Source: a virus
Taxonomy: Duplodnaviria; Heunggongvirae; Uroviricota; Caudoviricetes
DNA: 7,168 nt
Strand: one strand, 5' to 3'
IMG/VR virus record: IMGVR_UViG_2724678985_000019
This document shows, in pieces, positions 6,285 through 7,168 of this stretch; the stretch's first letter is position 1; each line of letters opens with the position of its first letter. Under the pieces are notes generated by a model. The model made no database searches, was not told where the DNA came from, and saw only the letters and a program-made list of their open reading frames with translations. The translations under genes were made by a program, and so were the position numbers.

Positions 6285-6467
6285 TGTTTTGCTGTGGCAG
6301 TGATATCAGAAAAATCTTCCTGTTTCACATAAAGCGGATATGCGCGTACTGTAACGGCCCCATCAACGGGGATCGGATTTGAAATCCCGACCCAAGCTAT
6401 GTACCAAATGCCATGTCTTGGATATATGATGATTGCCATTCTAAACAAAGCTAAAGGGAGGGTTGGT

Positions 6468-6818
6468 GTGAATGCTCAGGCTGTCATCATGGTTTTCCTT
6501 GGTCTGATTGTCGCAAAACTATATCCAGACTGGTGGAAAGGGGCATTAGCAACTGTCGCCATCTATTTGCTTTTATCCGTCGTTAAGCGATCGTTCGTTA
6601 AGACCGTAAATCAAGCAAAACGTTTCTCATTTAAGAATTTAATAAACTATATTACTGGGCTTATTTTTTGCCTTTCAATTTTGATCGCCTCAGCTTTTTT
6701 GCCCGTATCAATAGCTAATTTTTTTGGCGCACCATATGAGGTAGGTTATCTATTCTCTGTTTTTTGTCTTGTTCTTTCCCTTCTTTACCTATGGATGAGA
6801 GCAAAGAACAAAAATTAG
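6468..6818 (+). CDS. Small integral membrane protein (~4 predicted transmembrane helices), unknown function
   Basis: The longest ORF starts at 6399, but a GTG at 6468 has a strong AAGGGAGG Shine-Dalgarno 6 nt upstream and sits just before the first hydrophobic helix (AVIMVFLGLIVAKL); in-frame ATGs at 6399, 6408, 6426 and 6429 lack a Shine-Dalgarno. Four hydrophobic segments ~15-20 aa each. Visibly AT-rich. Start is uncertain; the stop at 6816-6818 is firm. Confidence 0.6.
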   Translation: MNAQAVIMVFLGLIVAKLYPDWWKGALATVAIYLLLSVVKRSFVKTVNQAKRFSFKNLINYITGLIFCLSILIASAFLPVSIANFFGAPYEVGYLFSVFCLVLSLLYLWMRAKNKN

Positions 6819-7020
6819 CCATCCATGACGTTTTTATGTTAGTACCAACAGATTTACCACATTTATCATCTTAACAGTTTGAGTGAAAATGCAGGCTGCG
6901 CCGCAAAGGGAGGAGACTGAGTGGCGTGTTCAGTCTAAAAGAGGGTTGATGCCAGCATACAGGGGCGAAGCTGGTCAACAAGTCAACATTAAGATAATGG
7001 AATATTCGGAGAGAAACGTC

Positions 7021-7168
7021 TGAACCGCCCCGGAAAACCTGGAGACTAAACTCCCTGAGAAAGAGGTAAACAGGATGACTAAAAATACTCGTTTTTCCCC
7101 CGAAGTCCGTCAGCGGGCGATTCGTACGGTTCTGGAAAGACAGGATGAATATGACTCACAGTGGGCGG
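7021..7168 (+). mobile_element. IS3-family insertion sequence, left (IRL) end, partial; element continues rightward out of window
   Basis: Begins TGAACCGCCCCGGAAAACCTGGAG; inverted copy of 1-94; contains the OrfA start. Confidence 0.85.
7075..7168 (+). CDS. IS3-family transposase OrfA, N-terminal fragment (truncated by window edge)
   Basis: Translation MTKNTRFSPEVRQRAIRTVLERQDEYDSQWA; AGG Shine-Dalgarno-like sequence in GGTAAACAGG upstream; matches my recollection of IS629/IS1203-group OrfA. Confidence 0.8.
   Translation, partial: MTKNTRFSPEVRQRAIRTVLERQDEYDSQWA

What the first reader, a model, noticed from the sequence alone, without database searches (positions are those of the whole stretch)
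6399..6818. AT-rich small 4-helix membrane protein as terminal cargo gene next to the IS
A ~116-139 aa protein with four hydrophobic helices and a basic C-terminus (RAKNKN) is encoded in the most AT-rich part of the window, preceded by palindromic operator-like sites and followed ~200 bp later by the IS end. Small multi-pass membrane proteins in such contexts are often abortive-infection effectors, superinfection-exclusion proteins, or immunity/toxin components. I do not recognise the family.
Basis: partly seen in the sequence, partly recalled or inferred. Interest (0 to 1): 0.45.

Follow-up and report, generated by a model that had tools for sequence, protein, structure and literature searches.

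The report
Orphan gene from a phage's sieA slot
The small four-helix membrane protein gene is real, but it is not insertion-sequence cargo: it is a stranded leftover of a P22-like prophage, sitting in the slot where phage P22 keeps sieA (a gene that stops related phages injecting their DNA), so it is probably an untested, unrelated replacement for that gene.

Summary
The ORF is real. Its true start is GTG 6468, giving 116 aa rather than 129 or 139. It encodes a predicted 4-TM protein with N and C termini inside and a basic C-terminus. GC is 37.9% against 46.3% for the window.

It matches no curated family and no solved or predicted structure. The family is tiny: 13 cluster representatives among 1.84 billion proteins, all from Enterobacterales.

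In 25 of 25 other loci, from E. coli, Yersinia, Edwardsiella and Serratia, the gene lies 17-24 nt from the 3' end of a convergent P22 gene-16 (ejection protein) homolog. That is the position of P22 sieA. In intact P22-like prophages it follows the same leader, RBS and GTG start as P22 sieA. That same 22-nt leader precedes at least 12 unrelated small proteins, nearly all with hydrophobic N-termini.

The protein is not a detectable SieA homolog (hhalign probability 0.15%) and lacks the SieA motif.

In this window, prophage DNA ends 9 nt after the stop codon and joins core chromosome just upstream of ykgL. The right IS1203 copy is a strain-specific insertion inside ykgL.

Best reading: a non-homologous replacement of sieA, probably an inner-membrane protein that excludes superinfecting phages. 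That function is inferred, not shown. Interest is moderate.

The parts
6468..6818 (+). Coding sequence of the 116-aa four-helix membrane protein (GTG start, TAG stop at 6816-6818). This is the sieA-slot gene.
   Evidence: ORF. Start fixed by the conserved RBS/GTG junction and by relatives that start at the same residue. Four helices. dN/dS about 0.35. PGAP annotates 6429-6818 as a hypothetical protein, WP_000560496.1.
6433..6470 (+). Diverged copy of the sieA-type leader with RBS (GGGAGGG 6456-6462) and GTG start: TTGCCATTCTAAACAAAGCTAAAGGGAGGGTTGGTGTG.
   Evidence: It aligns with the P22 sieA leader TGGTATCCTGCACAAAACTAAGGAGGTTGGTGTG and with the identical block in prophages PU-1 and L019 and in phage S.Kent 1-2-1.
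6399..6467 (+). Probably untranslated leader.
   Evidence: It is not conserved in the intact-prophage contexts PU-1 and L019. Conservation across contexts begins only at the RBS.
6819..6827 (.). Last 9 nt of prophage-derived DNA. The rearrangement junction lies between 6827 and 6828.
   Evidence: Window 6700-6827 aligns to strains 83972 (96.9%) and PU-1 (90.6%). Homology stops at 6827, and K-12 homology starts at 6828.
6828..7020 (+). Core chromosome: 61 nt of the matA-ykgL intergenic region plus ykgL codons 1-44 (ATG 6889), cut off by the IS.
   Evidence: 100% identical over 193 nt to K-12 MG1655 312,051-312,243. ykgL is intact in O111 strain 11128.
7021..7168 (+). Left end of an IS1203/IS629-type IS3-family element (orfA ATG at 7075), inserted in ykgL.
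   Evidence: Inverted repeat with 1-97, 98% complementary. The other copy is annotated as an IS1203 family transposase in O111 11128. The insertion in ykgL is absent from every complete genome searched.
1..95 (-). Left end of a second, inverted IS1203 copy at the other edge of the window.
6228..6249 (.). Perfect 22-bp palindrome AGTTGCAAAATTTTTTGCAACT, about 220 nt upstream of the start.
   Evidence: It is present only in island-type upstream flanks (window, 83972, D2; altered in SEC470) and not in intact prophages.
6259..6281 (+). Third copy of the 23-nt motif CGCGCGCGTACTTGTCNCGAAAT. The other copies are at 4229 and 5972.
   Evidence: Three matches against 0.00 expected in 200 shuffles.

Best explanation
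The gene is an allele of the sieA cassette slot of P22-like (Lederbergvirus-type) prophages. In intact prophages it sits between the antirepressor region and gene 16. It is transcribed towards gene 16 and follows the same leader, ribosome-binding site and GTG start codon as P22 sieA.

It encodes a 116-aa protein predicted to span the inner membrane four times, with N and C termini in the cytoplasm. The loop between helices 2 and 3 and the C-terminal tail are basic. Two short periplasmic loops are conserved (YPDWW and GAPYEVGY).

Most likely it is made from the prophage in the lysogen and acts at the inner membrane to stop related phages delivering their DNA, as SieA does by interfering with the gp20/gp16 ejection-protein conduit. 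It is not a detectable homolog of SieA, so it would be an analogous replacement.

In this window the rest of the prophage has been lost. The gene survives intact at a rearrangement junction 9 nt past its stop codon, fused to core DNA upstream of ykgL. An IS1203 copy later inserted into ykgL.

What is shown: the gene's reality, its start, its architecture, its slot identity, the cassette swapping and the junction. What is inferred: membrane localisation, expression and the exclusion function. My confidence in the slot identity is about 0.95. My confidence in the exclusion function is about 0.45-0.5; the confidence figure given for this explanation refers to the whole statement, including that function.
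For: Position:
- P22 sieA lies 22 nt from the end of gene 16 and converges on it.
- The target family lies 17-24 nt from a convergent gene-16 homolog in 25 of 25 loci. These are E. coli prophages and IMG/VR contigs, Yersinia enterocolitica (intact P22-like prophage), Edwardsiella tarda, and a Serratia relative only about 34-36% identical.
- Intact prophages show the order int, tailspike, ant, arc, mnt, further genes, TARGET, then convergent gp16, gp20, gp7.

Shared leader:
- The P22 sieA 5' flank is TGGTATCCTGCACAAAACTAAGGAGGTTGGTGTG. It differs by one base from the flank of the target in PU-1 and L019.
- The 22-nt leader precedes at least 12 unrelated small-protein families in 120 viral contigs, including SieA type A and the target. 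In 106 of 113 usable cases a convergent gp16 follows. Eleven of the 12 families have an N-terminal hydrophobic segment or signal peptide.

Cassette swapping:
- Strain D2 has the same upstream flank and a 98%-identical gp16 but a different slot gene encoding a signal-peptide protein.
- No locus carrying the target also carries SieA type A or B.

Protein:
- Topology by hydropathy and the positive-inside rule, and a four-helix model.
- Purifying selection.
- The copy in the window is 100% identical to copies in a contig with a complete P22-like structural module (L030).
Against: - There is no sequence relationship to SieA. BLASTP gives E = 0.95 and the profile-profile probability is 0.15%. In contrast, SieA types A and B find each other at 1e-19.
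- The conserved cytoplasmic SieA motif FxRYPxEAxxFNK is absent.
- The protein is smaller (116 aa against 164-212) and lacks SieA's long charged loop.
- The ant-moron region is known to hold genes of unknown function unrelated to exclusion, such as hkcB and hkcC (PMC2629481). Position alone therefore does not prove function.
- The simple scan found no promoter upstream of the gene in the window. The window's leader is a diverged form of the P22 one.
- No experimental data exist for any family member.
- The gene is absent from all 50,697 deposited phage records at DNA level.
Confidence: 0.5

Rival explanations
1. The protein is a prophage-expressed membrane protein with a different role. It might be an abortive-infection or toxic membrane effector triggered by infection, an excluder of unrelated phages, or a lysogenic-conversion or fitness factor. 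On this reading it simply uses the same expression slot as sieA.
For: The slot holds at least 12 unrelated families, including one without a hydrophobic segment. Other ant-moron genes have unknown roles. The protein has no SieA motif or homology. A small 4-TM architecture is also seen in lambda RexB, an Abi channel (from my own knowledge).
Against: There is no partner gene such as RexA in the slot; most slots hold a single gene. PADLOC and Pfam found no match to a holin, toxin or Abi family. The tight linkage to the end of gene 16 and the swapping with sieA behind the same leader fit a like-for-like replacement best.
Confidence: 0.25
2. The protein is a true but extremely diverged SieA homolog (a fourth type), with the same ancestry and mechanism, and the sequence signal has been lost.
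For: [quoted passage not shown] The gene has the same slot, leader and orientation as sieA, and a membrane character.
Against: hhalign probability is 0.15%. The one motif conserved across types A-C is missing. Length and helix layout differ. Types A and B remain mutually detectable at 1e-19.
Confidence: 0.1
3. In this strain the gene is an inert remnant. The family is real, but the copy here is no longer expressed or useful and persists only because it was recently stranded.
For: The rest of the prophage is gone. The 3' flank is replaced 9 nt after the stop codon. No promoter-like site was found upstream. The surrounding island is decayed, with a diverged duplication, an IS insertion and an interrupted ykgL.
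Against: The ORF is intact and 100% identical to copies in complete structural modules. It keeps more than 1 kb of its native upstream flank, with the same AlpA-to-gene arrangement as L030 and L034. The gene-ykgL junction is kept unchanged in 35 complete genomes.
Confidence: 0.12
4. The gene is passenger cargo of an IS1203 composite transposon formed by the two inverted IS copies.
For: Two IS1203 ends in inverted orientation bracket positions 96-7020.
Against: The right copy interrupts the core gene ykgL, and 193 nt of core DNA lie between it and the gene. No complete E. coli genome has this right-hand copy, while 35 have the same gene-ykgL junction without it. Everywhere else the gene travels with P22-like prophage DNA, not with IS elements.
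Confidence: 0.03

Closest known systems
P22 SieA (type A) and prophage HS1 SieA (type B), superinfection exclusion protein A (Pfam PF26849)
   Same: Same genomic slot, convergent with and about 20 nt from gene 16. Same leader, RBS and GTG start. A small multi-pass membrane protein encoded by P22-like prophages. Mutually exclusive with SieA in the loci examined.
   Different: No detectable sequence or profile similarity. Lacks the FxRYPxEAxxFNK motif. It is 116 aa with four closely spaced helices, against 164-212 aa with three or four helices and a long charged loop. Function is untested.
Other genes of the P22-like ant moron (hkcB, hkcC, orf59a; epsilon34 genes 14 and 15)
   Same: Variable genes of unknown function in the region between gene 16 and gene 9 of P22-like phages (PMC2629481).
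   Different: The target is not found in any deposited P22-like phage genome. It occupies the sieA position itself rather than a neighbouring one.
HK97 gp15 and T4 Imm (inner-membrane blockers of phage DNA entry)
   Same: Small phage-encoded inner-membrane proteins, expressed to block genome injection by related phages. HK97 gp15 is cited as a moron-encoded exclusion protein in the reference list of PMC10883804. T4 Imm is from my own knowledge.
   Different: No sequence similarity detected in the PHROG, Pfam or BFVD searches. Different helix number and different host phages.
Lambda RexB
   Same: A prophage-encoded inner-membrane protein of about 140 aa with four transmembrane helices (from my own knowledge).
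   Different: RexB works with RexA as an abortive-infection channel. No partner gene is present here and there is no PADLOC or Pfam match.

Membership tests
SieA (P22 superinfection exclusion protein A, types A/B/C; PF26849) | Detectable sequence or profile similarity to SieA proteins | tested here: not met
   BLASTP against P22 SieA gives E = 0.95. hhalign of the family profile against a SieA A+B profile gives probability 0.15%. As a positive control, types A and B hit each other at 1e-19 to 1e-20. The Pfam copy available lacks PF26849, because P22 SieA itself gave no hit, so the Pfam scan was not a valid test.
SieA (P22 superinfection exclusion protein A, types A/B/C; PF26849) | Conserved C-terminal cytoplasmic motif FxRYPxEAxxFNK | tested here: not met
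   The motif is described in PMC10883804 and is visible in alignment A3. The target ends ...LLYLWMRAKNKN and has no such motif.
SieA (P22 superinfection exclusion protein A, types A/B/C; PF26849) | Located between gene 16 and gene 9 of a P22-like prophage, next to and convergent with gene 16 | tested here: met
   Seen in 25 of 25 loci outside the O111-type junction. In the window itself gene 16 has been deleted.
SieA (P22 superinfection exclusion protein A, types A/B/C; PF26849) | Expressed from the sieA leader (RBS and GTG start; putative PsieA) | tested here: met
   A block identical but for one base precedes the target in PU-1 and L019, and the window carries a diverged copy. Promoter activity itself was not tested.
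SieA (P22 superinfection exclusion protein A, types A/B/C; PF26849) | Inner-membrane localisation | not testable with these tools
   Prediction only: four hydrophobic helices and a positive-inside charge pattern.
SieA (P22 superinfection exclusion protein A, types A/B/C; PF26849) | Blocks DNA injection by P22-like phages, with escape mutations in genes 16 and 20 | not testable with these tools
   Requires plating, K+ efflux and escape-mutant experiments of the kind reported in PMC10883804.
IS1203 composite transposon cargo | The same IS-bounded unit is mobile: found elsewhere, with IS copies directly flanking the cargo | tested here: not met
   The right IS lies in ykgL, beyond 193 nt of core DNA. 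It is absent from all complete genomes. There are no plasmid copies of the gene.
Known defence, toxin or holin families (PADLOC, Pfam, NCBIfam, PHROGs) | Match to a curated profile at or near its threshold | tested here: not met
   There were no hits, or only weak chance-level hits far below the cut-offs (best NCBIfam hit 16 bits against a cut-off of 200). There were no structural matches in BFVD or PDB (best E = 0.7 and 3.7) and no PDB sequence match.

The most novel reading that the evidence does not exclude
The interval between the sieA leader and gene 16 may be a dedicated cassette hot spot. P22-like prophages would use it to exchange at least a dozen unrelated small envelope proteins, each a different way of blocking the ejection-protein DNA conduit or another envelope step of infection.

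On this reading the 116-aa four-helix family would be a new, structurally distinct injection blocker. It would act through its conserved periplasmic loops rather than SieA's cytoplasmic motif. Orphan copies such as this one would be kept by the host after prophage decay as domesticated anti-phage genes.
Probability: 0.35. Interest if true: 0.55.

Novelty: new variant of a known kind. Interest (0 to 1): 0.4.

Why it matters
SieA is the only characterised occupant of this slot, and how it recognises very divergent gp16/gp20 conduits is unexplained (PMC10883804). An unrelated protein sits behind the same leader at the same position. At least ten other uncharacterised envelope-protein families do the same. 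This suggests a natural panel of alternative injection blockers that could be compared directly.

Testing them would show whether exclusion at the inner membrane has evolved repeatedly. It would also show which part of the ejection machinery is the common weak point.

For genome annotation, the result gives a context-based label, sieA-slot membrane protein, to a gene that is currently a hypothetical protein in more than 200 complete E. coli genomes, including O111 STEC, strain 83972, APEC O1 and S88. It also corrects the start codon.

Tried and rejected
**Searches that gave nothing**
- Pfam, NCBIfam, PHROGs and PADLOC scans gave no usable hit.
- The Pfam copy lacks the SieA family: the P22 SieA control failed. 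Membership therefore had to be tested by BLASTP and hhalign instead.
- tblastn against 50,697 phage records gave no match even at E = 10. This is probably partly due to the low-complexity filter, so I rely on the DNA searches, which were also negative.
- The genome-contig scan (one genome per species) found no relative.
- The afdb50 fold library was unavailable.
- BFVD and PDB fold searches gave only non-specific helical hairpins. The PDB sequence search gave nothing.
- Rfam gave nothing in the window.
- The promoter scan gave nothing upstream of the gene. I noted a possible extended -10 element (TGGTATCCT) in the conserved P22-type leader by eye only.
- Literature searches for the protein accessions, and for other characterised slot genes, gave nothing.

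**Ideas considered and rejected**
- Strict coupling between the slot allele and the gp16 type. Rejected because D2 and the 106-aa family share the PU-1/D2-type gp16 with the target.
- The minus-strand ORF 6068-6448 as the real gene of the region. It has no homologs in any library, and the conserved frame is the plus-strand one.
- IS composite-transposon cargo (see rival explanations).

**Left unresolved**
- Whether the P4-like elements carry ejection-protein genes as satellites, or whether these are tandem P4-like and P22-like insertions fused by deletion.

Full report
**1. The observation**

The window carries an ORF at 6399-6818 on the plus strand. The hydropathy profile shows four hydrophobic segments. 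An AlphaFold2 model built on 13 family members has four helices (2-18, 22-50, 55-85, 90-115; mean pLDDT 75.5).

The charge distribution puts the loop between helices 2 and 3 and the C-terminal tail in the cytoplasm. That loop (KRSFVKTVNQAKRFSFK) has six Lys/Arg, and the tail (MRAKNKN) has three. Two short loops, PDWWKG and PVSIANFFGAPYEVG, face the periplasm. This topology is an inference from the positive-inside rule.

The gene has 37.9% GC against 46.3% for the window, which makes it the second most AT-rich stretch. Between the two main alleles there are 11 synonymous and 13 non-synonymous differences, giving dN/dS of about 0.35. It is therefore a real coding gene.

**2. The start codon**

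Conservation between different genomic contexts begins only at CTAA(AG)GGAGGGTTGGTGTGAAT. The GTG at 6468 lies 6 nt after a GGAGG. Relatives from E. coli, Citrobacter, Yersinia and Serratia all begin at this residue (MNAQ.../MNGQ...). The product is 116 aa.

**3. Where the window comes from**

The region is E. coli chromosome of the O111 type. It contains:
- an IS1203 end at 1-95;
- an m5C methyltransferase and an HNH endonuclease;
- a P4-like island segment (a 119-aa ORF, a pRiA4b-ORF3 protein, PerC and AlpA);
- the target gene;
- ykgL, cut by a second, inverted IS1203 copy at 7021.

BLAST shows that prophage-type homology ends at 6827, 9 nt after the stop codon. Positions 6828-7020 are 100% identical to K-12 DNA starting 61 nt upstream of ykgL.

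Thirty-five complete genomes share this gene-ykgL junction. None has the IS in ykgL. The IS is therefore a late, strain-specific insertion into a core gene, and the target is not its cargo.

**4. What the gene is**

No curated family matches it, and no structure does either. The family is very small: 22 clusters at 90% identity and 13 representatives at 50% identity among 1.84 billion proteins. Members come from E. coli, E. albertii, Salmonella, Citrobacter, Yersinia, Edwardsiella, Serratia and Pluralibacter, and all are named hypothetical. The gene is present in 227 of 5,426 complete E. coli genomes at several chromosomal sites, and never on plasmids.

The decisive evidence is context. In strain PU-1 the gene lies in an intact P22-like prophage, between the immI/antirepressor region and the three ejection-protein genes, converging on the gene-16 homolog. 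The same holds for:
- 15 of 15 IMG/VR contigs;
- strain 83972;
- further contigs carrying the identical protein, one with a full P22-type head and tail module;
- a Yersinia prophage, an Edwardsiella element, and a Serratia relative only 34-36% identical.

That makes 25 of 25 loci, with 17-24 nt between the two stop codons. In P22 this is the position and orientation of sieA, which lies 22 nt from gene 16.

**5. The same leader as sieA**

Upstream of its GTG start, P22 sieA has TGGTATCCTGCACAAAACTAAGGAGGTTGGTGTG. The target in the intact prophages PU-1 and L019 has the same block with one base changed. So does an unrelated 68-aa gene in Salmonella phage S.Kent 1-2-1. The window has a diverged version, and HS1 type-B sieA shares part of the block.

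I scanned IMG/VR for the 22-nt leader and took a truncated sample of 120 loci. Translating from the GTG gave at least 12 unrelated small-protein families. These include SieA type A (9 loci) and the target (6 loci). Eleven of the 12 families have an N-terminal hydrophobic segment or signal peptide. A convergent gene-16 homolog follows in 106 of 113 usable cases.

Strain D2 has the same upstream flank and a 98%-identical gp16 as the window-type allele, but a different slot gene. This is a clean cassette swap. The target never co-occurs with SieA A or B in the loci held.

**6. Is it a SieA?**

By ancestry, no, as far as these tools can see:
- BLASTP gives E = 0.95.
- The profile-profile probability is 0.15%, while SieA types A and B, only 24-28% identical, still find each other at 1e-19.
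- The one motif shared by SieA types A-C, FxRYPxEAxxFNK (PMC10883804), is absent.
- Length and helix layout differ.

I therefore do not file it as a SieA family member. It works from the same place and is the same general kind of protein.

**7. Likely mechanism**

[quoted passage not shown] Escape mutations fall in the C-terminal parts of gp16 and gp20 (PMC10883804).

The best-supported reading for the target is the same job done by a different protein. It would be expressed from the prophage, insert in the inner membrane, and interfere with assembly or function of the ejection-protein conduit, or with a host partner of that conduit. The most conserved parts of the family are helix 1 with the following YPDWW loop, and the start of the second periplasmic loop. 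Contact may therefore be periplasmic rather than cytoplasmic.

All of this is inference. I put it at about 0.45-0.5. The rivals are a different prophage-encoded membrane role (0.25), a very diverged SieA homolog (0.1), an inert remnant in this strain (0.12), and IS cargo (0.03).

**8. Novelty and score**

The variability of the region between genes 16 and 9 is known (PMC2629481), and so is the existence of three SieA types. I found nothing on this family, or on the shared-leader cassette pattern, in the searchable literature.

I rate it a new variant of a known kind: a non-homologous occupant of the sieA slot. Interest is moderate (0.4). It is unlikely to astonish a specialist, but it offers a direct and simple experiment and a panel of sister cassettes.

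Noticed in passing
IMG/VR loci L035-L154 (leader CAAAACTAAGGAGGTTGGTGTG); also L021 6040-6396, L022 6040-6438, L024 3533-3739: The sieA leader precedes at least 12 unrelated small-protein families. Examples are 27 copies of a 109-aa protein with a TM helix and coiled coil, 24 copies of a 129-aa signal-peptide protein, and 62-aa and 75-aa two-helix proteins. Nearly all are followed by a convergent gene 16. Apart from SieA, none matched a characterised protein in this work. One locus (L154) has two slot genes in tandem.
   Followed up: partly
L002 9400-17600; L026 8348-16022; L021 6416-12102; L022 6500-10718: A block of P22-type ejection-protein genes (gp16, gp20, sometimes gp7 and gp14) plus a slot gene recurs directly next to P4-like primase genes (Toprim/DUF927 or DUF5906). 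It is seen in E. coli 83972, SEC470 and D2 and in Edwardsiella. These are either tandem P4-like and P22-like insertions fused by deletion, or satellites that carry their own ejection proteins. Not resolved.
   Followed up: partly
window 4611-4637 and 4681-4731: There are six exact copies of GTTGGTTCA (0.09 expected by chance). Three are head-to-tail, and three are inverted copies spaced 21 nt apart. They lie just upstream of the PerC gene (start at 4574, minus strand). The pattern looks like iterons or an operator array.
   Followed up: partly
window 4229-4251, 5972-5994, 6259-6281: A 23-nt motif, CGCGCGCGTACTTGTCNCGAAAT, occurs three times on the same strand (0 expected). It contains a CG-rich palindrome (TACGCGCGCGCGTA in the first copy). 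Its function is unknown. One copy lies about 190 nt upstream of the target gene.
   Followed up: partly
window 3818-3995 and 4820-4997: A diverged duplication (72-77% identity) is spaced 1,002 nt apart. Each copy encodes a small ORF (61 aa and 72 aa, MTPREI.LLTIAKLEHGGHQL...) that matches phrog_7271 of unknown function.
   Followed up: no
window 541-1611 (+) and 1590-2249 (-): An m5C DNA methyltransferase and an HNH endonuclease converge and overlap by 22 nt. The endonuclease matches PADLOC REase_II at 5e-21. This is a likely type II restriction-modification pair, placed directly inside the left IS1203 copy.
   Followed up: no
window 6889-7020 / 7021: ykgL is interrupted after codon 44 by an IS1203 copy. 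This insertion is not present in any of 5,426 complete E. coli genomes. With the inverted copy at 1-95, it brackets 6.9 kb in a composite-transposon-like arrangement, but there is no evidence that the unit is mobile.
   Followed up: yes
window 6068-6448 (-): A 126-aa minus-strand ORF overlaps the target's upstream region. PGAP and JGI annotate it in some genomes (D2 WP_001444474.1; L030 839-1210). It has no match in any library and contains the 22-bp palindrome and one CG-rich motif. It is probably not a gene.
   Followed up: partly
window 2795-3154 (+) and 3147-3689 (-): A 119-aa ORF with no family match converges on, and overlaps by 8 nt, a pRiA4b ORF-3-like (PF07929) gene. The pair is conserved next to paoD/yagP in strains SEC470 and D2. 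It may be a two-gene module of the P4-like island.
   Followed up: no
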